Below are positions 16,457-64,000 of a stretch of DNA of 64,000 nt, one piece after another. Made by a program: the position numbers and the translations under genes. Source of the stretch: Naegleria gruberi (Eukaryota); NCBI GenBank assembly GCA_000004985.1, contig GG738900.1. One strand, given 5' to 3'. Below the pieces are notes generated by a model, which saw nothing but the letters and a program-made list of their open reading frames with translations, searched no databases and was not told where the DNA came from. The number at the start of each line of letters is the position of its first letter. Within the stretch, counting starts at the first letter, position 1.

Positions 16457-16478
16457 TTACAATGACAGGACCAATCAA
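16457..16478 (-). promoter_or_regulatory. Conserved upstream element TTACAATGACAGGACCAATCAA, 70-91 nt upstream of the paralogue B ATG.
   Basis: Identical to 15383-15404. The surrounding 5' UTR (AACATTTTTTTG) is also shared. Confidence 0.5.
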
Positions 16479-26300: not shown

Positions 26301-27084
26301 TCCATACTTTAACGATCTGAACATTAATCCTCACACTGTCTCCACTCTACAAATGATCTTGCAAGGAAGCGTTCAAGCAAGGGTTGGTGAAGGACCTAAA
26401 AAAGTTGTGGAAATCTTTTTAAATAGAGAATTCAGAGAAAGATGGAAAGTTCAACAAGGAAACTCTGACCTTATCACCAAGCTTAATGAGAGATGTTTCA
26501 GATTTTTGTTATTGTGTGATAGAGGAGTCAAGTTGCATTCTCTCATAATCCACTCTCAAACACCAACAGCTACCAACAATAAGGATAGAATTTTACATGC
26601 AGAATTGGAGAAGGGTTTCCATGAAGTCAAGTCATTATTCGAAGCCTACCTAGAAATTCCAACTGTGAGAACCTTTGTACCAGTTGTTAATGGATCTATT
26701 GTACCAGAGAGAGTAACCAACATGAAGAAGGGACAAGAAACTGTAGAAACATTTATTACTGTCACTGTTCAAGATGTTTTGAATTATCCAGATTTATTCT
26801 ACAAGCACAATAATATTTCTTACAATACTCTGCAAAATCTTAAACTTGGCAAACAACAATTAACCGACCCATTCAAACAAATTTCAACACCATCAGAATC
26901 GCCAAGAAATGCAGACCTCCTCAATGCAATCAGAAACAACAATAGACTTTCAATTCCATCAACTAAAATGAAGGAATATTTGGAACAATTAAGTATTCCC
27001 TCAGGAAGATCTCTCAACTTGGATTCTGATAACCATCTAGTTCACGACTTACTCCTTCGTCAGTCCTCAGCTGATCTTCAATAA
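17387..27084 (+). CDS. DOCK-family (dedicator of cytokinesis) Rac/Cdc42 GEF of about 3200 aa. Structure is join(17387..18443,18503..27084).
   Basis: Exon 1 is a low-complexity Asn/Ser-rich N-terminus. GTATGT donor at 18444, TAATAG acceptor at 18502, phase 1. DHR-2 signature SKLPELRLAWLEQLASYHKGLAQYEESAHCYLRILSLVFDYL at about nt 24470-24620. Size and architecture match DOCK/Zizimin proteins. Confidence 0.8.
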
Positions 27085-40353: not shown

Positions 40354-40510
40354 TCAACTCAATAGAAACCCAAACCGAATGAACATGTTACAAAACTAGT
40401 TCCGAGTGTTTTTAGAATCAAAATCATCACCGATCATGAAACTTTGTTTTAATTTTTTTAATCAAAAAAAATTAAAGTTTCTGATCATCAATTTGTAATT
40501 TAATTCTAGA

Positions 40511-42777: not shown

Positions 42778-44073
42778 TTAAATCTTCTTTTCAGAGACGA
42801 GTGAAACCACTTCGAAAGTGTTATTTACCAAATCGACCGAATCTGCAGGAACGTAGGCAAAACTCATCTTGTCTGTATTATGTGAAACTGCATATTTTCC
42901 ATCTTTGGATAAGACAATCAATCCACCAAGTCCATTCACTTTTTCTTGTAAATATTCAATAACTCTTTGAGTTGCTAAATTAACTTGTTCGAGTGGTTCT
43001 TGTTTTTCCTGGAATGATTGGTGAGTGTAGACTGTTGCTGTGGTATTTTCCTTTCTTTGAGGAACGTTATTAAACTCGAGCCATCTAATCAACGTTCCTG
43101 TCATTTGAATGGTCATTATACTTTCTCCCCAACCAGTCGAGGAAGCTCCTGCAACAGAAGAATCAGCAAATGTGCCTGATCCAATGAGACCAGTATCTCC
43201 ACTTCTTCCAGGAACTATTTTGAAATATTAACAATCCAAATAAAAGTTAAATATTACCTTTTTTAGGAGTTCCACCAGTTGATGTGGCTGCACAAATATT
43301 TCCATTTCTATCTAACACAACTACTCCAACAGTTCCTCTCTTTGAAGGTGGTGGTTGAGTATCCTTAGCTTCAAAAACAGTTCTACTCGTAAATTCCTCA
43401 TTATTCCTAATTCTATCCAAAAATTCCAATTCTCTCTTTGTCAATAATTCTTCCACACTTTCAATTAGTAATTCCTTCCTTTCTTCATCTGTTTTCAAAT
43501 TTGATTTGGCAAATTCCAATGCATTCTCTCCAACCAACAAATTATGTTCAGTTCTATTCATGACCATTCTGGCAACACAAATTGGATTCCTCACTCCTTG
43601 AATTCCACAAACAGCTCCAGATTTCAAACTAGTTCCATTCATGATACTTGCATCCATTTCCACTTGTCCTTTCAAATTCAAAAAAGATCCCTTCCCGGCA
43701 TCAAATGTTTCATCATTTTCCAAAATTTTAATCTATTTCCTCATCCACATTTATCATCATCATTTGATCATCAATTAAATATAATAATATTTAAATATTC
43801 AAATATTTCATCATCGGAATGATATGCTCAAAAAGGATAAATAACAAAGATGAACACCTACAGCTCTCACAGCAGCTTCCTCAGCATCAATTTCACCCTT
43901 CAAAAGTGCTGGATAAACATTAGCAATGGCACTCCTCGTACCATCAATGTGATCTTGTTCCAAATCTTTAGGAATGGACCAAGCACCTCCATGAACAATC
44001 TGTTGTTATTAGAGGTTCAATAAATTATTGATCAACGTACCATGAGTGGCTTTACTGATGTTAGATTTTCCAT
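42778..44073 (-). CDS. Ntn-hydrolase asparaginase / isoaspartyl peptidase (plant-type asparaginase family). Structure is approximately join(42778..43214,43258..43731,43862..43999,44041..44073).
   Basis: MENLTSVKPLM / IVHGGAWSIP... / GTVGVVVLDRNGNICAATSTGG with Thr nucleophile / VPGRSGDTGLIGSGTFAD. Introns of 43-120 nt with GTAATA, GTAGGT and GTACGT donors. Confidence 0.75.
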
Positions 44074-44263
44074 TTTTTTTGAAAATTAATTTTTCTGTAT
44101 AGATAATTTAAATAGTTTACAAAAAACTACCAACATTTCAAATGTAAACATATTGTGTTGATAAAACTCAATTATTTCTATTTGGAAATTTTATTTATTA
44201 AAATTAGTAATTCAATTTCCCTAACAAGCTCGGAATTATTTTTAATTTCATTATTTTCAATGA

Positions 44264-46047
44264 TTAGTCAAAGAGGTGCTTTACGTGATCTCTTGGATGG
44301 AAGTACAATGGATATTTCTTAGTACTAATATAGAAGGTAATTTGGTCTGTTTCCATTTTAGGGAATTCAGCATGTTCCTTAGTTAACTTGAAATTTCTAA
44401 CAGCATTAATAATTGAAAAGTGGAACTCTGCATTAGCAATACGACTTCCAGGACATTTTCTGGCACCAACCTATAAATATCAATATAACAAATTAACAAA
44501 TATGGAAAGAATTAAATTAATCCAAAATTAGAAAATTAACAACTTACACCAAATGGAAGTGATGAAAACATTGACTTTGGAGCGAGTGGACTCTTCTTAT
44601 CATGTCTCTCTGGAATGAATTCCAAAGCATTTGGAACATATTCATCCTTCATACTTGGGAAATAATTCATGAAAATGACAACAGTTTCCTTTGGAAGATT
44701 GAATCCACCAATTTCCAAATCAGTATTCAATTGTCTACCGAATGTAATGTAGGCAAATGAGTTGAATCTCGTAACTTCTTCAACGAATTGTTTGGTTAGT
44801 TTGAGTTTCTTATATTGTTCTGGTGTGATTTCTAATCCATTTTCGGAAAGGATTTCATTTTCAGTTGGTTCACCGAAAATTTCCAAACATTCCTGATAAA
44901 TCTTTTCCTGGTATTCTGGATGATGAGCTAATCTATAAAGGATAAAATTGGAAATTCTTGACGTCAAGTCAACTCCACCTTGTAAGAAAGTTGACAATAC
45001 AGTAGTGACCTTATCCTGAGCATTCTCAATTCCTTCTGATCTTTGTGTAAGAATTTCCAAAAATCTTGGTTTAGAACCTTCTGGTAATGGTTGACCAAAT
45101 CGATCAACACAATATCTAGTATTAGCAATTACACTATCATACATATTCTCAATAATTCCATACTCCTTAGTTTTGAAATACTTGTAAATTGGAAGTTTGT
45201 AATCTAATCTTGAACACAAATCGAGAACTGTCATGGCTTGCTTTGAAAAATCATCAAGTTTGAATGGTAGACCTCTTTCTAATTCTTCAGTCATCTTGAC
45301 ACCAAAGAAAACTTTCATAATTGCATCGAAGGCATATCTGGAAGTTGCTTCCATACCATTATTCAGTCTATATTTGTTTTCACCAACTTTGGTAAAGTTC
45401 TTTCTCAATTGTCTAATATAATCACTATTCATTTCTGTCAATTGAGGAACAACAATACGATCAAGGAATTCAGGTTTCATTGCAAGATTGAAAATTTGAC
45501 GAATATCATTCCAATTTTCTTCAATTTTCATTTCTACTGGAACCAACTCTAATCCACGAGTTTGTTTGTAATATCTTGATGGACCCAAAATTGTTCTACG
45601 TTCTTCTACTCTTGCTACGTCAGCTATCAGACTAGGATCTGAAAGAATAACCAAATTGACTCCAAAAGCAGTCAACTTGACCATTTCTCCGTATTCTTTA
45701 CATAAATCAAGGAAGAATTCTTGAGTATTTGTGGCATTCTTCTTAATATCTAGATAATTACCAAGCAATGGTAAAGGTTTAGGTCCAGGAATTTCAGAGA
45801 AAGGTTTAACTTTTGGTTTCTCATCGGCGGTGGAAGCTGTTACACTTCCATATCCGTATGGACATTTGGCACCTCCTGAGGATGGGATTGTTGTTGCTAA
45901 GGATTCTTTTGTTGTGTCTTTATGATAGTATCTTCCAACACCTTTCATAGTTGAAGTGTTTGCTAATTGATGAGTAGTGGCAGATGACTTGAGAAGGAGA
46001 CCTGTATTGTTCCATCTTCTCTTTAGTGGAGCGGCAAGTAATGACAT
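44264..46047 (-). CDS. Cytochrome P450, join(44264..44460,44548..46047), with a basic, mitochondrial-presequence-like N-terminus.
   Basis: EIPGPKPLPLLGN proline-rich hinge. Heme-binding loop PFG/VGARKCPG is split by an 87-nt GTAAGT..TATAG intron. N-terminus MSLLAAPLKRRWNNTGLLLK is Arg/Lys-rich with no acidic residues. Confidence 0.85.
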
Positions 46048-48126
46048 TTTTTAGGTAATGAATTGGAATGTAAATTTGCAAAGAGCTGTTTATTTTTAAT
46101 GATTCTTCGCAATTGGTGCTCACTATTCGAAAGTGGGAATTAGCATTCAAAATAGGAAGTACGATAGGGTTTTTATTACAATTTCGTAAAAATTATTGCA
46201 TTAGAGGATGTCACCTACTATTCTGGTATCAAATTTAAATTGCCAAACTTGTTGCATTGTGCACTAAACCATTGGAAAATTCAAACTAAAGGATAAAATG
46301 TTGGCACTTTCGGTTAAAGTAAAGACCATGAAGTTGTAATTCACAGTAAGAAGGTGCCACCAAATGTTAATTCAAAATTACTGGAAAAATAAATTGTAAA
46401 CCAATTCAAAGCGAGAGTGAAGTATGCACTTGAACTGTAGATGAAAACTGTAGAGCGAAAAATTGTCATGATGAGGTTGAAGGTGAAGAGTAGTTACAGT
46501 TCATCATTTGAATTCTATTATTATTCTATGGGAAAGAATTGAGTTGTTCTTGCTTGGTTGTTATCATCCAAGAGTTTAAATTATATTTTGGAATTTTCTG
46601 TTGTTTGATTTGTTGTTGAGGCATGAATCAACTAGATATGATAACTTGGTCAAAATACACTGTACAATTTTCATTAATACAATATTTTGACATGTAGAAC
46701 AATCCTACATTAATAGTTTTCCAAATTATCCAGTGGAAAAAGCAGTACATCATCAAGATGAATTTAATTGAAAAAGTACTCTTTGGCATTCCCAAATATT
46801 CCACAATTATAAATAATAATATATTGTTTTGATGAGAATTGTCCATTACTGATGTTAGTGTTTGTTCCAATGATTAGGTTTCATCTTAGATTTTCCTGCC
46901 TACTGGTAAAAATGTTTCCGACTTGATGATGGTGCTCCAGTCAAATAACAATATTAATCTACTATGATAGAGTGATGATGTGAGGTCATTCCAAGAACCA
47001 TCACTTTTCCCCGAAGCATGTGTGTTGTTCCTATTTTTTGAATTTAATAATTTTTCAAAAAATTAAACAACATCAGTACTTGCGGAATGGTTGAAACAAA
47101 TAACATCAGGCTGTACATAATGGCCAAAAACAAATAATCCTTTGTGACTATTGCATCATCTCAACATGATCTTTTCTAGTAATTTATTAGTGGATTATTA
47201 TTAAAACGGAATTTATTTTTCAAAAGTTGTGGATCATCTTATCATATTCTTTCCATCAATATAATTAAATATAATGGTATTTGTGGAAATTAATATTTAG
47301 TAGTAAATTAATTTTAATTTTGATATTTAAAGTCAAACAGCATCTATGCATCGGAATTTACTTGATGAGTCGAAAAACCATCAGTTGGATTGTTGAAAAA
47401 GTATATACAAACCTAACATGTACTCCACCTTAATTACTATCATATTTATTATCAGATTTTCATCACGTTGTCAATTTACCAAGTTTCGACATTTTTCAGC
47501 AATAACAAATAATGCACAGAGGCTTGAATCATAATTTGTGAAAATCATGATGGATATCTAATAATTAAGAAATGGAAGAAGTAATCAAACTAGACTGAGT
47601 TGTTTCCTTAGGTGCTGAGAAAGATTCTGTTTTTCAAATATTTGAGGCACTTCCAGTCCATCTAACTGTTCCACATTCAAATCTTCATGCTAATCATAGC
47701 ACATATTTGAGTAATAAATTTTCTTGTTCTATTGAGATATTCTTGTTATCCCAATCATGCTTCAATTGTTCAATTTGTGATTTGGAGTTGGATGCTTCAA
47801 TTTCTGACTTTCTCTTCAAACCAGGCCTTCTGAATTTAACAACCTTAATTAAATGATAATGTTACTATGTTGAAGATTCAATATGGAAAATTACTTTACT
47901 GGGTCATTTCATTGGTGGGAATACCTTGATTTCAATCCACCTGTTATCTTTCTATTTATATCCAACTAATTGTAATTATTTATTGATTACAATAACATGT
48001 GAAATGCACATCTGTTCAGTCCCTGTTCATTTGATTGTAAAAATGATTTGAATTGGTTTCATTGGATATAAAACCTTTTCACAACTCTCAACAAAAGTGA
48101 ATAACTCAACCAAAAAAACAAATAAC

Positions 48127-49622: not shown

Positions 49623-51626
49623 TTATTGAATGAAACATTTTTTCTTTACATCATCAATTTCCAAATCAGCACCGCCACTCTTTGATTGTTTCTTCTTCAA
49701 TTTCTTCCTATATTTTTCCCTCTTTTTTTTATATTCCTCAACTTTTTTATAGTATGAATCTGGTGGCCATTTGTTTTCAGTAACATGTTTCAGATTTTCA
49801 CCTGTTAAAAGTTCCCATTCCCTTCTTGCTTTCATTGGACCATAATTTGTAGAGATGAAATGGAGACAAAAGTTGGGCAATTAATTGGCTTCATAAGTTT
49901 GAGCTAGTAATAGTAGACCTATAGTGTCAATGTCAGCATTTTCAATTCCTTGAGCAACTGATTTGTCAATATTTTTCGAGATGAAAATTTCACACAATGA
50001 GATTGCCATATTCGTTGGCCAAACTCAACAATCCAACAGCATTTCTTTCATTGATGGTAGAGTGAGCAGAGTATAGATATTCGAATAGGGCATGGAATTC
50101 ACTTATTCTATTCTCGTTCTCACCAATTTCACCACTCAAATCTACTTGCCTTGATGAGTGCTCTACGAAATTAGCTTCAAACATTGTTCTGAATACATCA
50201 CAATTAGCAGAGAGGAATAGCTTGTGTCCATGGAAATTCTTGGAAGAATCAGTTGTGGAAAAGACAATTTCGACATCGGAGTGAGTTTTCTTATCAAAGT
50301 ACTTTTTCTTAATTTCACTACCCAATAAATCATTAAGATATGTTTCAATGCTTTCATTGAACACATCTTCCTCTACTATCTGGTAATTACTGACTATATT
50401 GTTAGTGTATTCACATTCAAGGATGGTAGATGCAGTCTTGACCTTATTGAGAAATTGATCTTTTTTACACCTTTTCCGCATTGTTTCCGATCCTCCATAA
50501 TATTGAATTTCTAATAGGGATTTGAAAGCCCTATGATGAATAGTGTTGGAGAGTCTGAATTTCAATATATTTGGCTCATTCTCATCAATAGAGACAGATG
50601 AGAAACCACTCACTCTACCTCCATTAATTTTGGCACTCAACTTTTCAAATGCTTCATGTGAATAGCTATTCATTCCAGCATCTCTAGAAACCAATACTTC
50701 ATCGAATAATTTTCCAATAACTTTGGAGGGAACACAAGCCAACACCAATGAATGGGCCTTAATTTCCACATCAATGTCCTTCTTGGAATTGTAAATTACA
50801 AACTTGGTATCACAGCAAAAATCACTATCCAAAAGGTTTTTAAAACCCTTGCCATAATTTGAGCTTTCCACATAAATCCTAGGAGCTTTTCTAGCTGGAG
50901 GCACTATAGGAGGAGTTGGTTCAATATCTTCAGGGTTTCCAATCACTACCTTCTTTCTTCCTTTTTTTGAAGATTTGGACACGTAAATTGTTTCTGAAAT
51001 TGCCAATTTGAAGAGTTTATCAATATTGTACATGGCTCTAGAGCTTGTAATAATGCATAGTGAAGCAAGTGAATTCTGTAACTTTTGCTCAATCATTTCC
51101 TTAGTGACTATTGAGTCACAATCAGCATTTGAGACAAGGTCACTCTTACACCCAACCAAAATGATCTATTTGAATAGAAAGGGAATATTCAATGAATTCA
51201 TTGGCATGGAATGGTCAACTTACTGGAATATCAGGACAGTGATGAATCAATTCTGGAATCCATTTTGATTCGACATTCTCAAAGGAAATACGATCGACCA
51301 TTGAAAAACTTAATCATTACGTTAGAGGAAGAATTCAACCACCGAAAAACATACCAAACAAAGAAGACATCAGTTCTCAGATATGAAAGAGCTCTCAATC
51401 TATCATAATCTAGTCAATTGTCAAATTGTCACAATTTTTATAATTCCAACATACCAGTATCCCACAATCCAACATTATAATTTCTATTTCCATATATCAC
51501 ATTAACACTATCAAAAACTGTTGGAGCATAATCTTCGGGAAATGAATTTGTGGTGGAGGCAATCAAAAGACAACTCTTTCCGACTTTGCTATCACCAACA
51601 ACTACCAATTTCAAGCTGTTCTCCAT
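49623..51626 (-). CDS. RhoBTB-type protein with an atypical Rho GTPase domain, two BTB/POZ domains, a polybasic tail and a CAAX box (CFIQ). It has at least five exons; resolved exons are 51438..51626, about 51372-51406, about 51164-51246, and 49990 to about 51106, with a C-terminal exon inside 49623..49880. Comparable to Dictyostelium RacA.
   Basis: [21 protein letters not shown]...LWDTG / [10 protein letters not shown] / [35 protein letters not shown] / [13 protein letters not shown] domains at [11 protein letters not shown]...[13 protein letters not shown] and HSDVEIVF...[22 protein letters not shown]-terminus [23 protein letters not shown]...CFIQ*. The G3 motif lacks AGQE. Confidence 0.7.
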
Positions 51627-53619
51627 TATTTACAGGTTGATGTGTTTGTTATTTTTTTTGTGGTTTTTAAATCTCTTGATATCAAACATAAAAACGCGGT
51701 ATAAAGTTAAAAATAGATTCTTATAGATGTGAAAATAGCTCACAATCGAAAGGATGAACAAAGCTTATTACAAAAGTGGAAGTGAAAGTGGTATTTATCA
51801 TGAATTTTATCACAGAAATCACTCTTGAAACATGAATTGTACTAGAATGTTCGAATTGATCAATTTAAGGTGGCACTGTAGCTCGCAATAAAAGACGAAG
51901 TAAACTGTTAATGTTTGAGAAGCTCTCCCACGGAATGCTACCACTCTGGAGATACAATTCGAAGAGAGTATATCCTATCAGATGTATATATTACAATCCT
52001 GCATTACATTTCTTTACAAATCGCTAGATATTGAATAAATAATAAAATCCTCTGTTGATCGAACTTGTAATCAGAAATGTGACGGTAAAAAAATTAAAGT
52101 TTCAACCCTCTTGCACGCAACAGCAACAAAATAAAACCCAGAGAAGAACAACATATGTTCTAGAGATGTTGTTCTATTTGTTCCTGCATTACATTGTTGT
52201 GATGTTGTTATGCGCCAATATTAATCACACAGTAGCCATTCCAATTTTAATTCTTGGCAGTGAAGGTCCATTCCAATTTTCACCACTTGCCTTTTTTGAA
52301 AAATTAAAGGACTTGGAAATATTTCTTAACAATATTGGGTCAACATCAGGTATATCATGCCTGTGTTGATTCTTGGTGTAATTTCACATCTATTAACTCC
52401 AAGAATTTCACCACATCATCTCATCATCATTTAAATAATATTATTAATAGTAATTTTTGGAATTCAATCCTTCATCATGATTTGGCAATAATTTTATTAT
52501 TTGGAAAAATTCAAGTTGGTACATCATCATCGGAACAACTACCAACCATCATTGTTATTTATCATCATTATAATAGTAATATTTGTGGAAATAAATCTGA
52601 TAATAGTATTATTTTAGTGAAATATTTTCACTAAAATCATCATCACTGCCAGATTTATATGATAATTTGGAAAACTTTCAATCTAGTATTGTTCAGCATG
52701 GTCGATTCCATCAGGTAAAATCACTTCCGAACGTTTTCCTATTGTTTATCATGATGATAGGTACATGTATATTTTCAACATGTACATGGACCATATCTCA
52801 ACATGTACTTCACCAACTTGGAAAATGTCTTTCATCACTACTATTCAAATACATAATAAACAATATATTTATCAGATTTTCATCATTTTGTGTTTTTGCC
52901 AACTTCGGGTTATTCATGGTCCCAATCATGATTCATGCCAAAAGTACAGTCAATCTTCTTGAAACATTAATAAACTTTTATTAGTACAATATTGTAGATG
53001 TACCATATCAATTATTTCGTCTTGTTTCGTTGAAATCATGAAGGGTTTGGAAACGTGTTGTTTTGATTTGTTTCTTCTGTGGCTCCATGGTCTTTATGAT
53101 CTGATATTGGGTTATTAAGCGCCGTTTGGGTATTTTGTTGGTTTTTTTAGTAAAGTTTTAAAAAAAGTATATAGTTCTTATCTAGTTATCGAGTTGTGGT
53201 GTAAATGTGTTGTTTTCAAGCTATTCGAAAGTAGTAACGATTTCGATATTCCGTTACTTTGCGTCACTTTGCGGACGGACTTACATTCAATCAATTTGGT
53301 TGTCATTCATATTGATGCGTAGAATTTTTGAGAGTATTTTTGAATGTACGTTATTTTTATCTACGCATGAATGAAAAGTACAACAATGATCAAGAGGAAT
53401 TGAGTCATGAGTATGATACTTTCTCAGATTGTTCTACGCATCAAGAGTATTCGATTCAGGATTCTATTCATATATGATATTTGTAATACATATATTGAAT
53501 TGGATGAGATGGAGTGCCATCTTGTTTTAAAAGTTGAGTCGACATTAAGGTATTCAGTAAATTGATACCACATGACTAATTAGAGTGATTATATGTCATT
53601 ATATCAATTTCTTTGAAAA

Positions 53620-53744
53620 CAGACTTGCTTCTGGACCTTTCAGATTTCTAGCCACTTTGACAGATCACCAAGTACTATCTACTGGATGCATTTCTTGAAA
53701 TAAAAGTATTTAATTTGAATAAAGTCCACTTTATTTGAGATGGT
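53620..53744 (+). repeat. Subtelomeric junction element, copy 1 of about 125 bp, directly preceding the first (GGGTTT)n array.
   Basis: About 85% identical to 57790-57915 (TTCTGGACCYTTCAGATTTCYAGCCA...CTATCTACTGGATGYATTTCTTGAAAT...ACTTTATTTGAGATG). Confidence 0.6.
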
Positions 53745-54105
53745 GTTGGGTTTGGGTTTGGGTTTGGGTTTGGGTTTGGGTTTGGGTTTGGGTTTGGGTT
53801 TGGGTTTGGGTTTGGTTTTGGGTTTGGGTTTGGGTTTGGGTTTGGGTTTGGGTTTGGGTTTGGGTTTGGGTTTGGGTTTGGGTTTGGGTTTGGGTTTGGG
53901 TTTGGGTTTGGGTTTGGGTTTGGGTTTGGGTTTGGGTTTGGGTTTGGGTTTGGGTTTGGGTTTGGGTTTGGGTTTGGGTTTGGGTTGGGTTTGGGTTTGG
54001 GTTTGGGTTTGGGTTTGGGTTTGGGTTTGGGTTTGGGTTTGGGTTTGGGTTTGGGTTTGGGTTTGGGTTTGGGTTTGGGTTTGGGTTTGGGTTTGGGTTT
54101 GGGTT
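53745..54105 (+). repeat. (GGGTTT)n telomere-like hexamer array of about 60 units with a few GGTTTT/GGGTT variants. It abuts an N gap.
   Basis: Perfect tandem hexamers starting right after a unique junction (...TTTGAGATGGTGTT|GGGTTTGGG). The six-frame ORFs here ([12 protein letters not shown]) are artifacts. Confidence 0.8.
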
Positions 54106-57004
54106 NNNNNNNNNNNNNNNNNNNNNNNNNNNNNNNNNNNNNNNNNNNNNNNNNNNNNNNNNNNNNNNNNNNNNNNNNNNNNNNNNNNNNNNNNNNNNNN
54201 NNNNNNNNNNNNNNNNNNNNNNNNNNNNNNNNNNNNNNNNNNNNNNNNNNNNNNNNNNNNNNNNNNNNNNNNNNNNNNNNNNNNNNNNNNNNNNNNNNNN
54301 NNNNNNNNNNNNNNNNNNNNNNNNNNNNNNNNNNNNNNNNNNNNNNNNNNNNNNNNNNNNNNNNNNNNNNNNNNNNNNNNNNNNNNNNNNNNNNNNNNNN
54401 NNNNNNNNNNNNNNNNNNNNNNNNNNNNNNNNNNNNNNNNNNNNNNNNNNNNNNNNNNNNNNNNNNNNNNNNNNNNNNNNNNNNNNNNNNNNNNNNNNNN
54501 NNNNNNNNNNNNNNNNNNNNNNNNNNNNNNNNNNNNNNNNNNNNNNNNNNNNNNNNNNNNNNNNNNNNNNNNNNNNNNNNNNNNNNNNNNNNNNNNNNNN
54601 NNNNNNNNNNNNNNNNNNNNNNNNNNNNNNNNNNNNNNNNNNNNNNNNNNNNNNNNNNNNNNNNNNNNNNNNNNNNNNNNNNNNNNNNNNNNNNNNNNNN
54701 NNNNNNNNNNNNNNNNNNNNNNNNNNNNNNNNNNNNNNNNNNNNNNNNNNNNNNNNNNNNNNNNNNNNNNNNNNNNNNNNNNNNNNNNNNNNNNNNNNNN
54801 NNNNNNNNNNNNNNNNNNNNNNNNNNNNNNNNNNNNNNNNNNNNNNNNNNNNNNNNNNNNNNNNNNNNNNNNNNNNNNNNNNNNNNNNNNNNNNNNNNNN
54901 NNNNNNNNNNNNNNNNNNNNNNNNNNNNNNNNNNNNNNNNNNNNNNNNNNNNNNNNNNNNNNNNNNNNNNNNNNNNNNNNNNNNNNNNNNNNNNNNNNNN
55001 NNNNNNNNNNNNNNNNNNNNNNNNNNNNNNNNNNNNNNNNNNNNNNNNNNNNNNNNNNNNNNNNNNNNNNNNNNNNNNNNNNNNNNNNNNNNNNNNNNNN
55101 NNNNNNNNNNNNNNNNNNNNNNNNNNNNNNNNNNNNNNNNNNNNNNNNNNNNNNNNNNNNNNNNNNNNNNNNNNNNNNNNNNNNNNNNNNNNNNNNNNNN
55201 NNNNNNNNNNNNNNNNNNNNNNNNNNNNNNNNNNNNNNNNNNNNNNNNNNNNNNNNNNNNNNNNNNNNNNNNNNNNNNNNNNNNNNNNNNNNNNNNNNNN
55301 NNNNNNNNNNNNNNNNNNNNNNNNNNNNNNNNNNNNNNNNNNNNNNNNNNNNNNNNNNNNNNNNNNNNNNNNNNNNNNNNNNNNNNNNNNNNNNNNNNNN
55401 NNNNNNNNNNNNNNNNNNNNNNNNNNNNNNNNNNNNNNNNNNNNNNNNNNNNNNNNNNNNNNNNNNNNNNNNNNNNNNNNNNNNNNNNNNNNNNNNNNNN
55501 NNNNNNNNNNNNNNNNNNNNNNNNNNNNNNNNNNNNNNNNNNNNNNNNNNNNNNNNNNNNNNNNNNNNNNNNNNNNNNNNNNNNNNNNNNNNNNNNNNNN
55601 NNNNNNNNNNNNNNNNNNNNNNNNNNNNNNNNNNNNNNNNNNNNNNNNNNNNNNNNNNNNNNNNNNNNNNNNNNNNNNNNNNNNNNNNNNNNNNNNNNNN
55701 NNNNNNNNNNNNNNNNNNNNNNNNNNNNNNNNNNNNNNNNNNNNNNNNNNNNNNNNNNNNNNNNNNNNNNNNNNNNNNNNNNNNNNNNNNNNNNNNNNNN
55801 NNNNNNNNNNNNNNNNNNNNNNNNNNNNNNNNNNNNNNNNNNNNNNNNNNNNNNNNNNNNNNNNNNNNNNNNNNNNNNNNNNNNNNNNNNNNNNNNNNNN
55901 NNNNNNNNNNNNNNNNNNNNNNNNNNNNNNNNNNNNNNNNNNNNNNNNNNNNNNNNNNNNNNNNNNNNNNNNNNNNNNNNNNNNNNNNNNNNNNNNNNNN
56001 NNNNNNNNNNNNNNNNNNNNNNNNNNNNNNNNNNNNNNNNNNNNNNNNNNNNNNNNNNNNNNNNNNNNNNNNNNNNNNNNNNNNNNNNNNNNNNNNNNNN
56101 NNNNNNNNNNNNNNNNNNNNNNNNNNNNNNNNNNNNNNNNNNNNNNNNNNNNNNNNNNNNNNNNNNNNNNNNNNNNNNNNNNNNNNNNNNNNNNNNNNNN
56201 NNNNNNNNNNNNNNNNNNNNNNNNNNNNNNNNNNNNNNNNNNNNNNNNNNNNNNNNNNNNNNNNNNNNNNNNNNNNNNNNNNNNNNNNNNNNNNNNNNNN
56301 NNNNNNNNNNNNNNNNNNNNNNNNNNNNNNNNNNNNNNNNNNNNNNNNNNNNNNNNNNNNNNNNNNNNNNNNNNNNNNNNNNNNNNNNNNNNNNNNNNNN
56401 NNNNNNNNNNNNNNNNNNNNNNNNNNNNNNNNNNNNNNNNNNNNNNNNNNNNNNNNNNNNNNNNNNNNNNNNNNNNNNNNNNNNNNNNNNNNNNNNNNNN
56501 NNNNNNNNNNNNNNNNNNNNNNNNNNNNNNNNNNNNNNNNNNNNNNNNNNNNNNNNNNNNNNNNNNNNNNNNNNNNNNNNNNNNNNNNNNNNNNNNNNNN
56601 NNNNNNNNNNNNNNNNNNNNNNNNNNNNNNNNNNNNNNNNNNNNNNNNNNNNNNNNNNNNNNNNNNNNNNNNNNNNNNNNNNNNNNNNNNNNNNNNNNNN
56701 NNNNNNNNNNNNNNNNNNNNNNNNNNNNNNNNNNNNNNNNNNNNNNNNNNNNNNNNNNNNNNNNNNNNNNNNNNNNNNNNNNNNNNNNNNNNNNNNNNNN
56801 NNNNNNNNNNNNNNNNNNNNNNNNNNNNNNNNNNNNNNNNNNNNNNNNNNNNNNNNNNNNNNNNNNNNNNNNNNNNNNNNNNNNNNNNNNNNNNNNNNNN
56901 NNNNNNNNNNNNNNNNNNNNNNNNNNNNNNNNNNNNNNNNNNNNNNNNNNNNNNNNNNNNNNNNNNNNNNNNNNNNNNNNNNNNNNNNNNNNNNNNNNNN
57001 NNNN
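54106..57004. other. Assembly gap (N run, 2899 nt).
   Basis: Continuous N. The ORFs translated across it are artifacts. Confidence 0.95.
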
Positions 57005-57789
57005 TTTCATTGAGATGGAATGTTCACAAAGATATATTAAGTGTCGACATTGAACATTTACTGATTAATTTTATGATAATAGTTTGAAATGTTTCTAAAC
57101 CATTGTAGATGTATTTAATTGATGTATAGACTATGTGATATCAATTCTAGACTTATTGTACGTAAAATGAATGAGTTGGAGTATAATCTATGATACCATG
57201 TAAAAGTCTATAGTAAATTGATAGAGTTGACATCTCAACATCTACTTAACCAATATCTGTGGTCAGGTTCTCGGCGCATTTTTGTGATGCTCCCAAAAAA
57301 CATGGAATGCTCCCAAAGCTGATTTACCTGTAGGGGTAATTGGATGCGCCAATAACACCGATTTATTACTTAAGCAAATTCACTCAACTTCAACAAAGCA
57401 TATCTCAATAACAACACTGGATGTTAGAGAAACATACCGTATGGTCATTATTAATTATGTTAACAATCATAATATCAAGTTTGTTACGGATTTGGCTCTT
57501 TACTTATCGAGAAAAGTGATTTCAAAATTTTCATATGTTGTAGTAAGACGAGCATGTTTTCTTGGTTAATACAAATAACTGATATTCAATAAAACAGAAT
57601 CTTGTAGAAAACATCAATTAGAACATGAATAATAAATAATATTTTTATTTCACTAAGTATTAAATTTAATATTTCCTTTTTTGTAAGGAGCATTGTAAAA
57701 ATACGGGAAAAACATTTCCACAGATATTCATGAAATTGATACCATATGTTAATAAGAGTGTCTACATATCATGGTATTAATTTCAGTGA

Positions 57790-57915
57790 AAATGGAGTTG
57801 TTTCTGGACCCTTCAGATTTCCAGCCATTCCATTGAAATATCACCATGTGCTATCTACTGGATGTATTTCTTGAAATGAAAACATATAATTTATGAAAGT
57901 ACACTTTATTTGAGA
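57790..57915 (+). repeat. Subtelomeric junction element, copy 2; internal, not followed by telomere repeats.
   Basis: Aligns with 53620-53744 up to ...TTTGAGATG, then diverges (TGGAACACGATATT) where copy 1 enters GGGTTT repeats. Confidence 0.6.
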
Positions 57916-59703
57916 TGTGGAACACGATATTATCATTTATTATGAGATTGGTAATTTTCCTATAGTATCTTCCTTAATTATCTTAATTGACCAAATTAGG
58001 TCAAGGAGAGATTTCAAAACATAAAATAAATTATATTTTCGAGATGTAGTAATGATTTCCAATCGATTGATATGTATTTTATAGATTGAGGATGTGGTTC
58101 TCTATATTCAAGATTTCCTCCTGATCTTCCCAACTCAACCTTGATATTTCACCCTTTACCTCCCGAATGGCGGTTTTTCCACCCCTCAGTTTTAGCCTTC
58201 AGTCAGAATAAAAAACACNNNNNNNNNNNNNNNNNNNNNNNNNNNNNNNNNNNNNNNNNNNNNNNNNNCATCTACTACTAACAACAACTAGTGAATGACC
58301 ACTTGACGAGTTGAATGAACAATGTCAACCACTAATCCATCTACTACTACTAACAACAACTATTGAACAAGTTTCTAATCAACATGATTGTAATGTGAGA
58401 GGTTGGAATGTACTACTTACATTGACAATAATTCAATATAGTTATAGTATTCTACAATAGAGTTTGTCTATTTACAATAGAACTATTACAAAGCTTATGA
58501 AATCCTTACTTGTAATTCAATCTGCTAAGGTTCGATTGGGTTGATAAATGATACTAGTTACTCGGATTGAAAGTATTATTACAAACAATCATAATAGAGA
58601 TGAATCTCACTCATTCAATATTGAGTTAGAGTTTCCAATTGTTCCTACAATAGAGAGATTTTATACCAATAGAGAGAGGATTAAACATCATGATCAATAT
58701 TATAACATACCCAACATACACAGGCTTTAATCTCTTCAATGAATCCAACTAGGGTTTTTATAGGATTATTCATCAATACTACTACTACTACTACCTACTT
58801 ACCTTAAACAATAACCCACAATAATAATGGACAAGTGAAAGTGTAACATTAGCAAACTAATGAAATTGTAACAATATAACCTACATTGTGGATGAATCAT
58901 GTTAGTGTATATATTCATATTGTTTAAATTGATGGACTCAAGATATTAATCATGTTAGTAATACGATTCCTACTAATACTTACTATTGTAGAGTAGTTAC
59001 ATGAAGTAACCTATGATCATCTAACCTATTGATAATGATGGAAATACAGAGAGATACCAATCAATCATAAAGAGTTGAAATAATTACTTACTGAAGAGTT
59101 GTTCCTTTGATTATTCGAGTACAACAATGACTTCCGAAGGAGGAATGTGAAAGCCTTTGATGGTTGAACTTAGTGTAGTGGAGAAATAGGATGATTATTA
59201 ATTACTAACACAGCACTTACCTGAGATGAATCGATTCGTGAGAAGATCTATTCAGTTGTGATTTTACTTTGAATTGGCTGATCGTCATTAGGCTTGATAC
59301 AGTCCTTGAATATTTAAAAGCGAGTTGATGAATGAGTACAAAGAAGTATTACTACAACACTTACCAAAACTAATTCCTAAATGATTAATGGATTGGTAAG
59401 GAGGAAGAGCTTTTCTTAAATTATAAAATCATTGCAACAACTTACTTGATTTCTTTCACATGATAAATCCTCTTCCTACCTCTTCCCACTCACAATCAGG
59501 CTAGTTATCATTAATATCCAAATAAACTACTACTTACTAGAAGAGTTTCAAATAAAGCTTTAATAGGGTTTAAATTGAAATTAACAATCAATAAACTTAT
59601 TAAGCAACCACTTGTTGTATGATGAATTATTTCTTGATGAAAACTGTAAAGATGGGTAGATAATGGTAGAGGTATTTTTTATTAATATACAAGAGGAATT
59701 ATC

Positions 59704-62700
59704 NNNNNNNNNNNNNNNNNNNNNNNNNNNNNNNNNNNNNNNNNNNNNNNNNNNNNNNNNNNNNNNNNNNNNNNNNNNNNNNNNNNNNNNNNNNNNNNNN
59801 NNNNNNNNNNNNNNNNNNNNNNNNNNNNNNNNNNNNNNNNNNNNNNNNNNNNNNNNNNNNNNNNNNNNNNNNNNNNNNNNNNNNNNNNNNNNNNNNNNNN
59901 NNNNNNNNNNNNNNNNNNNNNNNNNNNNNNNNNNNNNNNNNNNNNNNNNNNNNNNNNNNNNNNNNNNNNNNNNNNNNNNNNNNNNNNNNNNNNNNNNNNN
60001 NNNNNNNNNNNNNNNNNNNNNNNNNNNNNNNNNNNNNNNNNNNNNNNNNNNNNNNNNNNNNNNNNNNNNNNNNNNNNNNNNNNNNNNNNNNNNNNNNNNN
60101 NNNNNNNNNNNNNNNNNNNNNNNNNNNNNNNNNNNNNNNNNNNNNNNNNNNNNNNNNNNNNNNNNNNNNNNNNNNNNNNNNNNNNNNNNNNNNNNNNNNN
60201 NNNNNNNNNNNNNNNNNNNNNNNNNNNNNNNNNNNNNNNNNNNNNNNNNNNNNNNNNNNNNNNNNNNNNNNNNNNNNNNNNNNNNNNNNNNNNNNNNNNN
60301 NNNNNNNNNNNNNNNNNNNNNNNNNNNNNNNNNNNNNNNNNNNNNNNNNNNNNNNNNNNNNNNNNNNNNNNNNNNNNNNNNNNNNNNNNNNNNNNNNNNN
60401 NNNNNNNNNNNNNNNNNNNNNNNNNNNNNNNNNNNNNNNNNNNNNNNNNNNNNNNNNNNNNNNNNNNNNNNNNNNNNNNNNNNNNNNNNNNNNNNNNNNN
60501 NNNNNNNNNNNNNNNNNNNNNNNNNNNNNNNNNNNNNNNNNNNNNNNNNNNNNNNNNNNNNNNNNNNNNNNNNNNNNNNNNNNNNNNNNNNNNNNNNNNN
60601 NNNNNNNNNNNNNNNNNNNNNNNNNNNNNNNNNNNNNNNNNNNNNNNNNNNNNNNNNNNNNNNNNNNNNNNNNNNNNNNNNNNNNNNNNNNNNNNNNNNN
60701 NNNNNNNNNNNNNNNNNNNNNNNNNNNNNNNNNNNNNNNNNNNNNNNNNNNNNNNNNNNNNNNNNNNNNNNNNNNNNNNNNNNNNNNNNNNNNNNNNNNN
60801 NNNNNNNNNNNNNNNNNNNNNNNNNNNNNNNNNNNNNNNNNNNNNNNNNNNNNNNNNNNNNNNNNNNNNNNNNNNNNNNNNNNNNNNNNNNNNNNNNNNN
60901 NNNNNNNNNNNNNNNNNNNNNNNNNNNNNNNNNNNNNNNNNNNNNNNNNNNNNNNNNNNNNNNNNNNNNNNNNNNNNNNNNNNNNNNNNNNNNNNNNNNN
61001 NNNNNNNNNNNNNNNNNNNNNNNNNNNNNNNNNNNNNNNNNNNNNNNNNNNNNNNNNNNNNNNNNNNNNNNNNNNNNNNNNNNNNNNNNNNNNNNNNNNN
61101 NNNNNNNNNNNNNNNNNNNNNNNNNNNNNNNNNNNNNNNNNNNNNNNNNNNNNNNNNNNNNNNNNNNNNNNNNNNNNNNNNNNNNNNNNNNNNNNNNNNN
61201 NNNNNNNNNNNNNNNNNNNNNNNNNNNNNNNNNNNNNNNNNNNNNNNNNNNNNNNNNNNNNNNNNNNNNNNNNNNNNNNNNNNNNNNNNNNNNNNNNNNN
61301 NNNNNNNNNNNNNNNNNNNNNNNNNNNNNNNNNNNNNNNNNNNNNNNNNNNNNNNNNNNNNNNNNNNNNNNNNNNNNNNNNNNNNNNNNNNNNNNNNNNN
61401 NNNNNNNNNNNNNNNNNNNNNNNNNNNNNNNNNNNNNNNNNNNNNNNNNNNNNNNNNNNNNNNNNNNNNNNNNNNNNNNNNNNNNNNNNNNNNNNNNNNN
61501 NNNNNNNNNNNNNNNNNNNNNNNNNNNNNNNNNNNNNNNNNNNNNNNNNNNNNNNNNNNNNNNNNNNNNNNNNNNNNNNNNNNNNNNNNNNNNNNNNNNN
61601 NNNNNNNNNNNNNNNNNNNNNNNNNNNNNNNNNNNNNNNNNNNNNNNNNNNNNNNNNNNNNNNNNNNNNNNNNNNNNNNNNNNNNNNNNNNNNNNNNNNN
61701 NNNNNNNNNNNNNNNNNNNNNNNNNNNNNNNNNNNNNNNNNNNNNNNNNNNNNNNNNNNNNNNNNNNNNNNNNNNNNNNNNNNNNNNNNNNNNNNNNNNN
61801 NNNNNNNNNNNNNNNNNNNNNNNNNNNNNNNNNNNNNNNNNNNNNNNNNNNNNNNNNNNNNNNNNNNNNNNNNNNNNNNNNNNNNNNNNNNNNNNNNNNN
61901 NNNNNNNNNNNNNNNNNNNNNNNNNNNNNNNNNNNNNNNNNNNNNNNNNNNNNNNNNNNNNNNNNNNNNNNNNNNNNNNNNNNNNNNNNNNNNNNNNNNN
62001 NNNNNNNNNNNNNNNNNNNNNNNNNNNNNNNNNNNNNNNNNNNNNNNNNNNNNNNNNNNNNNNNNNNNNNNNNNNNNNNNNNNNNNNNNNNNNNNNNNNN
62101 NNNNNNNNNNNNNNNNNNNNNNNNNNNNNNNNNNNNNNNNNNNNNNNNNNNNNNNNNNNNNNNNNNNNNNNNNNNNNNNNNNNNNNNNNNNNNNNNNNNN
62201 NNNNNNNNNNNNNNNNNNNNNNNNNNNNNNNNNNNNNNNNNNNNNNNNNNNNNNNNNNNNNNNNNNNNNNNNNNNNNNNNNNNNNNNNNNNNNNNNNNNN
62301 NNNNNNNNNNNNNNNNNNNNNNNNNNNNNNNNNNNNNNNNNNNNNNNNNNNNNNNNNNNNNNNNNNNNNNNNNNNNNNNNNNNNNNNNNNNNNNNNNNNN
62401 NNNNNNNNNNNNNNNNNNNNNNNNNNNNNNNNNNNNNNNNNNNNNNNNNNNNNNNNNNNNNNNNNNNNNNNNNNNNNNNNNNNNNNNNNNNNNNNNNNNN
62501 NNNNNNNNNNNNNNNNNNNNNNNNNNNNNNNNNNNNNNNNNNNNNNNNNNNNNNNNNNNNNNNNNNNNNNNNNNNNNNNNNNNNNNNNNNNNNNNNNNNN
62601 NNNNNNNNNNNNNNNNNNNNNNNNNNNNNNNNNNNNNNNNNNNNNNNNNNNNNNNNNNNNNNNNNNNNNNNNNNNNNNNNNNNNNNNNNNNNNNNNNNNN

Positions 62701-63095
62701 NNNNNNNNNNNNNNNNNNNNNNNNNNNNNNNNNNNNNNNNNNNNNNNNNNNNNNNNNNNNNNNNNNNNNNNNNNNNNNNNNNNNNNNNNNNNNNNNNNNN
62801 NNNNNNNNNNNNNNNNNNNNNNNNNNNNNNNNNNNNNNNNNNNNNNNNNNNNNNNNNNNNNNNNNNNNNNNNNNNNNNNNNNNNNNNNNNNNNNNNNNNN
62901 NNNNNNNNNNNNNNNNNNNNNNNNNNNNNNNNNNNNNNNNNNNNNNNNNNNNNNNNNNNNNNNNNNNNNNNNNNNNNNNNNNNNNNNNNNNNNNNNNNNN
63001 NNNNNNNNNNNNNNNNNNNNNNNNNNNNNNNNNNNNNNNNNNNNNNNNNNNNNNNNNNNNNNNNNNNNNNNNNNNNNNNNNNNNNNNNNNNNNNN
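59704..63095. other. Assembly gap (N run, 3392 nt). A further 50-nt gap lies at 58219-58268.
   Basis: Continuous N. Confidence 0.95.
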
Positions 63096-63574
63096 CTTTT
63101 ATATCTACAGACTTGAACTTTTGAAATTTGATATGAAAGTGATTATAGATGTTGTTAATGATGATATATATACTATATAATCTCATTAAAGGATTTGAAA
63201 TTATCATTCTTCCTATAGTTTCATTTTACAAATTTTAATCTGCCACTATTTACAAAGTTAATATTTTATAAATTGAAAAACTAAATATAACACGTTGTTC
63301 TACTCATCATTTCCAATCGAATGATATAAAATTTAATGATATTTGAATAAGTTTATAATTTTGGGCTAGGGTTTGAAGGTTGGGTTTAGAAGAGTGTTGG
63401 GTTTGGTACCTGTCATTATCTCTCTGGTTTGGGATCCGCACATGCTCAGATCTTATAGCTTATCAATGTGATGTATAATAGTCTGATCTACATGTGGTAA
63501 AAACACGAAGGTGTAATATTCTATATTTATTGAGATAATCAATAAAGTTTAGTATTTGTCAGAAAAACTTGCCT

Positions 63575-64000
63575 TGGGTTGGGTTTGGGTTTGGGTTTGG
63601 GTTTGGGTTTGGGTTTGGGTTTGGGTTTGGGTTTGGGTTTGGGTTTGGGTTTGGGTTTGGGTTTGGGTTTGGGTTTGGGTTTGGGTTTGGGTTTGGGTTT
63701 GGGTTTGGGTTTGGGTTTGGGTTTGGGTTTGGGTTTGGGTTTGGGTTTGGGTTTGGGTTTGGGTTTGGGTTTGGGTTTGGGTTTGGGTTTGGGTTTGGGT
63801 TTGGGTTTGGGTTTGGGTTTGGGTTTGGGTTTGGGTTTGGGTTTGGGTTTGGGTTTGGGTTTGGGTTTGGGTTTGGGTTTGGGTTTGGGTTTGGGTTTGG
63901 GTTTGGGTTTGGGTTTGGGTTTGGGTTTGGGTTTGGGTTTGGTTTGGGTTTGGGTTTGGGTTTGGGTTTGGGTTTGGGTTTGGGTTTGGGTTTGGGTTTG
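63575..64000 (+). repeat. (GGGTTT)n telomere-like array of about 70 units running to the window end, G-rich strand 5'->3' toward the end. A degenerate copy lies at 63362-63410.
   Basis: Perfect hexamer repeats with one GGTTT variant near 63940. Same orientation as the array at 53745. Confidence 0.8.

What the first reader, a model, noticed from the sequence alone, without database searches (positions are those of the whole stretch)
53620..64000. Chromosome-end-like region: two same-orientation (GGGTTT)n arrays with a duplicated junction element
Two long perfect (GGGTTT)n arrays (53745-54105 and 63575-64000) lie in the same orientation, and the distal one reaches the window end with the G-rich strand pointing outward. 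Three N gaps split the region into small contigs. The ~125 bp before the first array recurs at 57790-57915, where it continues into unique sequence instead of repeats. A degenerate TTGGGTTT/TTAGGG-like stretch sits at 63362-63410. This looks like a telomere plus subtelomeric repeats, with either an interstitial telomeric array or a mis-scaffolded second chromosome end. The D. discoideum chromosome termini I know of are rDNA-derived A/G-rich repeats, so a simple GGGTTT telomere in a dictyostelid-like genome would be notable. GGGTTT is otherwise familiar from ciliates.
Basis: seen in the sequence. Interest (0 to 1): 0.7.

Follow-up and report, generated by a model that had tools for sequence, protein, structure and literature searches.

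The report
Naegleria gruberi telomere and subtelomere
The region is a chromosome end of the amoeboflagellate Naegleria gruberi (not a slime mould), and its TTTGGG telomere repeat was already proposed for this species from this same genome assembly in 2013, so the finding is real but largely ordinary.

Summary
Two near-perfect (TTTGGG)n arrays lie at 53746-54105 and 63574-64000, both with the G-rich strand pointing toward the window end. Three N gaps, a duplicated junction element and a degenerate telomere-like tract are also present.

The organism was misjudged. A 2853-aa ORF in the window is 100% identical to a Naegleria gruberi protein on a 312,004-bp scaffold. TTTGGG was already published as the candidate N. 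gruberi telomere repeat, found in silico at scaffold ends (Fulneckova et al. 2013).

New supporting evidence found here:
- A N. fowleri long-read contig starts with 1.35 kb of (CCCAAA)n, so the motif is shared within the genus.
- Homology of junction copy 1 to its intact paralog stops exactly where array 1 begins. This is the signature of a broken end healed by telomere addition.
- An independent public contig links the small contigs c2 and c4 in the same order and orientation, with no arrays. It shows a patchwork subtelomere with a conserved relic telomere tract.

Whether array 1 is now internal or is a second end merged by scaffolding cannot be decided, because it abuts a gap.

Verdict: a real feature of a known kind, of low interest.

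The parts
49990..51626 (-). Last recognisable gene before the chromosome end. It is RhoBTB-like, with a Ras-family GTPase exon at 51438-51626 and a BTB-containing exon at 49990-51159. About 2.1 kb of apparently non-coding, 31% GC DNA follows.
   Evidence: Pfam gives Ras at 2e-12 and BTB at 2.4e-17. Only short ORFs lie beyond it. GC content.
53043..53125 (+). Weak cluster of telomere-like G/T motifs (GGGTTTGG, TTGGGTT, GTTTGGGT), 620-700 bp proximal to array 1 and in the same orientation.
   Evidence: Five telomeric 7-mers fall within 83 bp, against a background of about 1 per 2.8 kb. Sequence read.
53401..53445 (+). Short subtelomeric module 'A', shared with the independent contig L006.
   Evidence: 86.7% identity over 45 bp to the far end of L006, E=3.5e-9.
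53520..53742 (+). Junction element copy 1 (J1). It is truncated at its 3' end exactly where the telomere repeats start (...CACTTTATTTGAGATG | GTGTTGGGTTTGGG...).
   Evidence: BLAST 80% over 198 bp, E=2e-44. Pairwise alignment. nhmmer. 83.6% identity to L006.
53746..54105 (+). Array 1: (TTTGGG) about 60 copies, G strand pointing to the window end. It abuts the 2899-bp N gap, so its true length and its distal flank are unknown.
54106..57004 (.). Scaffold gap (2899 N).
57005..58218 (+). Small contig c2 (30% GC, no ORF over 46 aa). It contains module P (57140-57256), an intact junction element copy 2 (57674-57917) and module B (57918-58161). Copy 2 continues ...GAGATG | TGGAACACG... into non-telomeric DNA.
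   Evidence: Collinear with L006 at 85-92% identity.
58269..59703 (.). Small contig c3. It is non-coding, has 30% GC and has no counterpart in L006 or elsewhere in the window. Gaps of 50 and 3392 N flank it.
63096..63340 (+). Module C at the start of the terminal contig c4.
   Evidence: 93.5% identity over 246 bp to L006, E=1.5e-102. Alignment.
63362..63427 (+). Degenerate telomere-like tract (TTTGGGCTAGGGTTTGAAGGTTGGGTTTAGAAGAGTGTTGGGTTTGG...). It is partly conserved in L006, and homology to L006 ends right after it. It is probably a relic of an older telomere or telomere-derived boundary.
   Evidence: Nine telomeric 7-mers within 60 bp. Alignment.
63574..64000 (+). Array 2: (TTTGGG) about 71 copies, G strand outward, running to the last base of the window. 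The junction reads ...AAAACTTGCC | TTGGGTTGGGTTTGGG...

Best explanation
This is the end region of a Naegleria gruberi NEG-M draft scaffold. It consists of canonical short-repeat telomere DNA, (TTTGGG)n with the G-rich strand running 5'->3' toward the end, joined to a gene-free, AT-rich, patchwork subtelomere.

Shown here:
- The organism.
- The arrays and their polarity.
- The same repeat at the physical start of a N. fowleri long-read contig.
- The modular subtelomere, shared with an independent contig.
- The exact coincidence between the start of array 1 and the point where junction copy 1 loses homology to its intact paralog.

Inferred:
- The repeats are made by telomerase using a CCCAAA-type RNA template.
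- Array 1 arose when a chromosome broke inside the junction element, at a T/G-rich GAGATG(TGG) site, and was healed by de novo telomere addition.
- The degenerate tract at 63362-63427 is the relic of an older such event.

Still open: whether array 1 is currently internal, in a yeast X-ITS-Y'-like layout with array 2 as the real terminus, or is a current end merged into the scaffold. In the second case it would belong to a shorter homolog or to another chromosome. I rate these two about equally.
For: - Organism: the DOCK ORF is 100% identical to the N. gruberi protein on a 312,004-bp contig. The P450 ORF has its best named hits in Naegleria and Willaertia.
- Arrays and polarity.
- Prior report: TTTGGG is the candidate N. 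gruberi telomere, found by inspecting scaffold ends (PMC3622300).
- N. fowleri: contig VFQX01000041.1 positions 1-1347 are (CCCAAA) about 223 copies, followed by unique DNA and genes.
- Healing signature: homology stops exactly at the repeat start.
- Independent contig: L006 is collinear with c2 and c4 and carries no arrays.
- Relic tract: telomeric 7-mers are enriched, and the tract is conserved in L006.
- No genes lie distal to 51.6 kb.
Against: - No experiment (Bal31, terminal restriction fragments, telomerase assay) for Naegleria telomeres was found in the held literature.
- I could not show that base 64000 is the scaffold end.
- Array 1 abuts a gap, so no continuous sequence shows what lies beyond it.
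- For array 2, homology to L006 ends about 165 bp before the array, so the healing signature is clean only for array 1.
- TERT and the telomerase RNA were not examined.
Confidence: 0.9

Rival explanations
1. Variant (a) of the open sub-question. The scaffold order is correct and array 1 is a genuine large interstitial telomeric array. An old chromosome end was extended by capture or duplication of about 9.5 kb of subtelomeric modules carrying their own telomere, as in yeast X-(TG1-3)-Y' ends.
For: - Both arrays have the same orientation.
- The gaps have specific sizes (2899, 50, 3392), which in Sanger-era scaffolds usually come from clone-pair links (inference).
- Placing contigs distal to a G-strand array requires clones with sequence beyond such an array (inference).
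- The c2-to-c4 order and orientation are confirmed independently by L006.
- Relic telomere-like tracts inside the subtelomere show that telomere DNA has been internalised here before.
- The 2013 survey notes internal blocks in most genomes it examined.
Against: - No read-level sequence crosses array 1.
- Contig c2 does not begin with TTTGGG, as the distal edge of an internal array should.
- Array 1 is as homogeneous (98%) as the terminal array, which is unusual for an old internal tract.
- In L006, c2 and c4 are 0.6 kb apart, against 4.9 kb in the scaffold. The scaffold interior may therefore be unreliable.
Confidence: 0.45
2. Variant (b) of the open sub-question. Array 1 is a present-day chromosome terminus. 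It belongs either to a shorter, broken-and-healed homolog of a heterozygous strain or to a different chromosome end. Contigs c2-c4 with array 2 belong to the longer homolog or to another end and were joined to it by scaffolding through repetitive subtelomeric DNA.
For: - Array 1 is near-perfect and runs into a gap.
- The junction has a clean break-and-heal signature relative to the intact copy.
- The two telomere-adjacent sequences are unrelated.
- The distal contigs are tiny islands (0.9-1.4 kb) separated by large gaps, typical of poorly resolved repeats.
- The spacing disagrees with L006.
Against: - A false join on the distal side of a G-strand array is not easily produced by misplaced telomeric reads (inference from mate-pair geometry).
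- Junction copy 2 is only 80% identical to copy 1, so it is not the allele of copy 1.
- No contig in the window represents the expected allelic continuation.
Confidence: 0.45
3. The arrays are ordinary internal microsatellites or satellites unrelated to chromosome ends.
For: Neither array is proven terminal with the tools available.
Against: - The motif is of the TnGm telomere type, and both arrays point outward.
- There is no other array in 57 kb of sequence.
- Genes stop before the arrays.
- The same repeat forms the first 1347 bp of a N. fowleri long-read contig in the correct polarity.
- The motif was reported at N. gruberi scaffold ends.
Confidence: 0.03
4. A dictyostelid genome with a novel simple-repeat telomere.
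For: AT-rich DNA and proteins with poly-N and poly-Q tracts superficially resemble Dictyostelium.
Against: There is a 100% protein match to N. gruberi. The next best hits are N. lovaniensis and N. fowleri at 56-59%. The P450 hits are all heterolobosean.
Confidence: 0.01

Closest known systems
Candidate TTTGGG telomere of Naegleria gruberi (Fulneckova et al. 2013, Genome Biol Evol, PMC3622300)
   Same: Same organism, same assembly, same hexamer. That study identified it by position and orientation at scaffold ends.
   Different: Nothing differs in kind. This window adds anatomical detail: two arrays, a truncated junction element and a relic tract. It also adds a matching terminal array in N. 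fowleri. The 2013 report was in silico only and called for experimental confirmation.
Paramecium telomeres, TTGGG(T/G) (my own knowledge, not tested here)
   Different: Paramecium mixes TTGGGG and TTGGGT units. The Naegleria arrays are almost pure TTTGGG. The organisms are unrelated.
Saccharomyces cerevisiae X-(TG1-3)-Y' subtelomeres and human subtelomeric duplicons bounded by degenerate (TTAGGG)n islands (established knowledge)
   Same: Modular, patchwork subtelomere. Telomere-derived tracts in the same orientation as the terminal array mark module boundaries. Homology between copies ends at such tracts.
   Different: Internal tracts in yeast are short (tens of bp to about 130 bp). Array 1 is at least 360 bp, nearly perfect, and not shown to be internal. 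No Y'-like helicase ORF or any other ORF is present.
Chromosome healing by de novo telomere addition (ciliates, Plasmodium, yeast, human terminal deletions; established knowledge)
   Same: Homology to an intact copy stops at the first telomeric repeat, at a T/G-rich site.
   Different: The event is inferred from a paralog that is 80% identical, not from an allele or a parental chromosome. It was not observed.
Dictyostelium discoideum chromosome ends capped by rDNA-derived sequence
   Same: Only AT-richness of the genome.
   Different: Different supergroup. The window is from Naegleria, and Naegleria rDNA sits on a circular plasmid (PMC13182076).

Membership tests
Telomerase-type eukaryotic telomere repeat (N. 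gruberi TTTGGG) | Long homogeneous tandem array of a short TnGm unit | tested here: met
   60 and 71.5 copies at 98-99% matches. 127 matches against 0.27 expected. Unit composition.
Telomerase-type eukaryotic telomere repeat (N. gruberi TTTGGG) | G-rich strand runs 5'->3' toward the chromosome end | tested here: met
   Both arrays are G-rich on the + strand and array 2 reaches the window's last base. The N. fowleri contig begins with the complementary CCCAAA strand.
Telomerase-type eukaryotic telomere repeat (N. gruberi TTTGGG) | Array lies at the physical terminus of the DNA molecule | not testable with these tools
   Scaffold coordinates of the window could not be retrieved. Raw reads, Bal31 digestion or a terminal-restriction-fragment Southern blot are needed. 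The indirect support is the N. fowleri long-read contig, which starts with the array at position 1.
Telomerase-type eukaryotic telomere repeat (N. gruberi TTTGGG) | Same repeat at many or all chromosome ends of the genome and in relatives | tested here: inconclusive
   There are two arrays in this window and one N. fowleri contig end, and the literature reports the repeat at N. gruberi scaffold ends. One N. lovaniensis contig end lacked it, probably because the contig is incomplete. No genome-wide survey was possible.
Telomerase-type eukaryotic telomere repeat (N. gruberi TTTGGG) | Synthesised by telomerase (TERT plus an RNA with a CCCAAA-type template) | not tested
   Neither gene is in the window. 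Rfam found nothing in the window. No paper in the held library addresses Naegleria telomerase.
Interstitial telomeric sequence / yeast X-ITS-Y'-like subtelomere | Telomere-repeat tract flanked on both sides by non-telomeric DNA in continuous sequence | tested here: inconclusive
   Array 1 has a sequenced proximal flank, but its distal side is a 2899-N gap. The short degenerate tract at 63362-63427 does meet this criterion.
Interstitial telomeric sequence / yeast X-ITS-Y'-like subtelomere | Distal element is a repeated module shared among ends or genomes | tested here: met
   Modules P, J, B, C and A recur in the independent contig L006 at 84-93% identity. J occurs twice in the window.
De novo telomere addition (chromosome healing) | Homology to an intact copy ends precisely at the first telomeric repeat | tested here: met
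   Array 1: copies 1 and 2 are identical through ...CACTTTATTTGAGATG and then diverge into GTGTTGGGTTT against TGGAACACG. Array 2 does not meet this cleanly, because homology to L006 ends about 165 bp earlier.
Dictyostelid chromosome end | Host genome is a dictyostelid | tested here: not met
   100% protein identity to N. gruberi, with the nearest relatives N. lovaniensis, N. fowleri and Willaertia.

The most novel reading that the evidence does not exclude
Naegleria chromosome ends may be dynamic structures. Subtelomeres would be assembled from short shuffled modules by repeated cycles of breakage, telomerase healing and re-extension. These cycles would leave large, near-perfect TTTGGG arrays inside the chromosome (array 1) and older degenerate relics (63362-63427, 53043-53125). 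This would be the first description of subtelomere architecture and turnover in a heterolobosean. It might differ between the homologs of the heterozygous NEG-M strain.
Probability: 0.4. Interest if true: 0.35.

Novelty: already known. Interest (0 to 1): 0.2.

Why it matters
The value is modest.

- It confirms that the in-silico candidate TTTGGG repeat behaves like a telomere in this scaffold.
- It shows that the same repeat caps a long-read contig of the brain-eating pathogen N. fowleri. The N. fowleri genome paper checked here (Liechti et al. 2019) does not mention telomeres.
- It gives a ready criterion for judging the completeness of Naegleria assemblies, and a probe sequence for FISH, terminal-restriction-fragment and telomerase assays.
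- The truncated junction element and the relic tracts offer a small entry point into subtelomere dynamics in Heterolobosea, a lineage where telomere biology has not been studied experimentally.

It does not reveal a new kind of chromosome end.

Tried and rejected
1. Dictyostelid origin: rejected by protein homology.
2. Placing the window within the 312,004-bp scaffold and surveying other N. gruberi scaffold ends: not possible. N. gruberi proteins and window ORFs are not on record in the contig index.
3. More telomeres from relatives:
   - The N. lovaniensis contig end next to a P450 paralog has no repeat.
   - The N. lovaniensis DOCK ortholog lies more than 12 kb from the part of its contig that could be fetched.
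   - The N. fowleri and Willaertia P450 loci are internal.
   - Only the N. fowleri DOCK locus was informative.
4. Extra copies of the junction element in the window: none found by nhmmer with --max.
5. Shared subtelomeric modules between N. fowleri and N. gruberi: none. Only the repeat itself is shared.
6. Structured RNAs and tRNAs in the window or in L006: none.
7. Coding potential of contigs c2 and c3 and of the tail of c1: only short ORFs. Contig c4 (63096-63573) was not scanned separately.
8. Experimental literature on Naegleria telomeres or telomerase, and the identity of the accession prefix VFQN: nothing found. The 2010 N. gruberi genome paper is not held.
Full report
**What is in the sequence.**
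Tandem Repeats Finder reports only two long arrays in the 64-kb window: 53746-54105 (period 6, 60.2 copies, 98% matches) and 63574-64000 (71.5 copies, 99%). A 12-mer of the repeat, allowing one mismatch, occurs 127 times against 0.27 expected from shuffles. Every match but one lies in these two arrays, always on the + strand.

The arrays are near-perfect rather than perfect. Array 1 has 56 TTTGGG, two TTGGG units and one G-to-T change. Array 2 has 68 TTTGGG, two TTGGG and one TTTGG.

N runs occupy 54106-57004, 58219-58268 and 59704-63095. They leave three small contigs: c2 at 57005-58218, c3 at 58269-59703 and c4 at 63096-64000. Array 1 runs directly into the first gap. Array 2 runs to the last base of the window.

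**Which organism.**
Homology says otherwise.
- The cytochrome P450 ORF (44536-46047, minus strand) has its named hits in Naegleria gruberi, N. lovaniensis, N. fowleri and Willaertia magna.
- The 2853-aa DOCK-family (dedicator of cytokinesis) ORF (18523-27084) is 100% identical over its full length to 'dedicator of cytokinesis [Naegleria gruberi]'. That protein is encoded on a 312,004-bp contig. The next best hits are N. lovaniensis at 59% and N. fowleri at 56%.

The window is therefore part of the N. gruberi draft assembly. Its size-estimated N gaps fit a Sanger-era scaffold (inference).

**What was already known.**
Fulneckova et al. 2013 (PMC3622300) searched 143 genome assemblies. Where standard motifs failed, they inspected scaffold ends by eye. 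[quoted passage not shown] They stressed that experiments are still needed, and that most genomes also show internal blocks.

The central point of the finding is therefore a rediscovery, in the same assembly. I found no later paper in the held library that tests Naegleria telomeres or telomerase experimentally. The N. fowleri nanopore genome paper does not mention telomeres at all.

**New support from a relative.**
The N. fowleri ortholog of the DOCK gene lies 4.3 kb from the start of contig VFQX01000041.1 (603,647 bp, GCA_008403515.1). That contig begins at position 1 with about 223 copies of CCCAAA (bases 8-1347, 99% matches), followed by unique sequence and genes. This is the polarity expected of a left-hand telomere whose G strand, TTTGGG, points outward.

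The motif is therefore shared across the genus and sits at a physical contig terminus in a long-read assembly. The N. fowleri subtelomere shares nothing else with the window.

Other attempts were uninformative. One N. lovaniensis contig end has no repeat. The other fetched loci are internal.

**Anatomy of the junctions.**
BLAST aligns 53548-53742 with 57722-57917 at 80% identity over 198 bp, E=2e-44. A profile built from the pair extends this to 53520-53742 and 57674-57917 and finds no third copy in the window.

In the pairwise alignment the two copies are identical through ...CACTTTATTTGAGATG and then part abruptly. Copy 1 continues GTGTTGGGTTTGGG... into array 1. Copy 2 continues TGGAACACGATATT... 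into ordinary sequence. Homology to an intact copy that ends at the first telomeric repeat, at a T/G-rich site, is the classical footprint of a break healed by de novo telomere addition. The event itself is inferred, not observed.

**An independent contig.**
A scan of the metagenome collection with a conserved 24-mer of the junction element returned one contig, L006 (VFQN01031297.1, 2627 bp, source organism unknown). Read on its minus strand, its matches to the window are collinear:

| L006 (minus strand) | Window | Identity | Window feature |
|---|---|---|---|
| 1-118 | 57140-57256 | 85% | module P in c2 |
| 115-554 | 57724-58161 | 91.6% | junction copy 2 plus downstream (module B) |
| 116-309 | 53551-53742 | 83.6% | junction copy 1 |
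| 1167-1410 | 63096-63340 | 93.5% | module C in c4 |
| 2582-2626 | 53401-53445 | 86.7% | module A, just upstream of copy 1 |

Three things follow.
- First, c2 and c4 are linked in the same order and orientation in an independent assembly, so that part of the scaffold is not a random join. They are 0.6 kb apart in L006 but 4.9 kb apart in the scaffold, and c3 has no counterpart.
- Second, L006 has no TTTGGG array. It reads straight through the position where array 1 interrupts junction copy 1.
- Third, the subtelomere is a patchwork of short modules that recur in different combinations.

**The degenerate tract.**
Nine of the 29 plus-strand telomeric 7-mers found outside the arrays fall within 63369-63427, against a background of roughly one per 2.8 kb. 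The tract (TTTGGGCTAGGGTTTGAAGG TTGGGTTTAG...GTGTTGGGTTTGG) is partly conserved in L006, and the 93% homology between c4 and L006 ends right after it. This looks like a relic of older telomeric DNA now marking a module boundary, as degenerate telomere islands do in yeast and human subtelomeres (established knowledge).

A weaker cluster in the same orientation lies at 53043-53125. For array 2 the junction is less clean than for array 1, because about 165 bp of sequence unrelated to L006 separates the end of homology from the array.

**Context.**
The last recognisable gene is a RhoBTB-like gene on the minus strand (Ras-family exon 51438-51626, BTB exon 49990-51159). Beyond it, the tail of c1 and contigs c2 and c3 carry only short ORFs, and GC falls to 28-31% across the subtelomeric contigs. 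Rfam and tRNA scans are empty.

**How it most likely works.**
The arrays are telomere DNA of the ordinary kind. Presumably they are extended by telomerase from a CCCAAA-type template and bound by end-protection proteins. This is inferred from the repeat type, its polarity and its terminal position in N. fowleri. TERT and the telomerase RNA were not examined.

Array 1 was born as a true end, by breakage inside the junction element followed by healing. What it is today remains open.
- Variant (a): it is now internal, and the 9.5 kb distal to it, with array 2, was added later. Supporting points are the shared orientation, the sized gaps that imply clone links, the c2-c4 linkage in L006, and evidence that telomere DNA has been internalised here before.
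- Variant (b): it is still an end, of a shorter homolog or of another chromosome, and scaffolding merged two ends. Supporting points are that the array is as pure as the terminal one, that it abuts a gap, that c2 does not begin with TTTGGG, that the distal contigs are tiny islands, and that the spacing disagrees with L006.

I cannot separate the two variants with the available tools and rate them about equal.

**Limits.**
I could not retrieve N. gruberi scaffold coordinates. That base 64000 is the scaffold end is therefore only a reasonable inference, based on the window ending inside the array. The source organism of L006 is unknown. Its 84-93% identity to the window points to a member of the N. 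gruberi complex or a paralogous end.

**Verdict.**
The chromosome-end interpretation is supported. The taxonomic framing, and hence the claimed notability, is wrong. The telomere motif is already in the literature as a candidate for this species. The junction and subtelomere details and the N. fowleri match are small increments. Interest is low (0.2) and novelty is 'already known'.

Noticed in passing
L002 1-14310 (N. fowleri VFQX01000041.1), L003 (N. lovaniensis PYSW02000027.1, 548803-578935), window 11020-27084: The DOCK ortholog is 4.3 kb from a telomere in N. fowleri, with the telomere on its 5' side. In N. lovaniensis it lies about 22 kb from the far end of a 591-kb contig, with an oxysterol-binding-protein gene upstream. 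N. gruberi has the same arrangement (OSBP ORF at 11020-12522). This suggests a chromosome break or rearrangement near this gene in the N. fowleri lineage.
   Followed up: partly
window 43761-46734 and L001: An ENA metagenome contig (sample ERZ929261, run ERR1078381) is 98.0% identical in DNA to the window, and its P450 product is 100% identical. A very close N. gruberi-complex strain is therefore present in that public metagenome.
   Followed up: partly
window 44536-46047 (-): The P450 ORF has no 100% match among NCBI N. gruberi proteins. The best N. gruberi hit is 71%, although the window is from that genome. The gene seems to be missing from the deposited gene set, or modelled differently.
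   Followed up: no
window 37858-39690 (-): A 610-aa ORF with cysteine-rich ends has no Pfam match. It may be a transposon-derived or lineage-specific gene, about 14 kb from the telomere array.
   Followed up: no
window 2556-3911 (+) and 36722-37651 (+): Two RCC1-repeat ORFs with clearly related sequences (paralogs) lie 33 kb apart in the same window.
   Followed up: no
window 57257-57723: About 465 bp are present in contig c2 between module P and junction copy 2 but absent from the otherwise collinear contig L006. This is an insertion/deletion polymorphism within the subtelomere.
   Followed up: no
window 40366-40377 (-): An isolated CGGTTTGGGTTT 12-mer lies on the minus strand, far from the arrays. 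It is probably chance.
   Followed up: no
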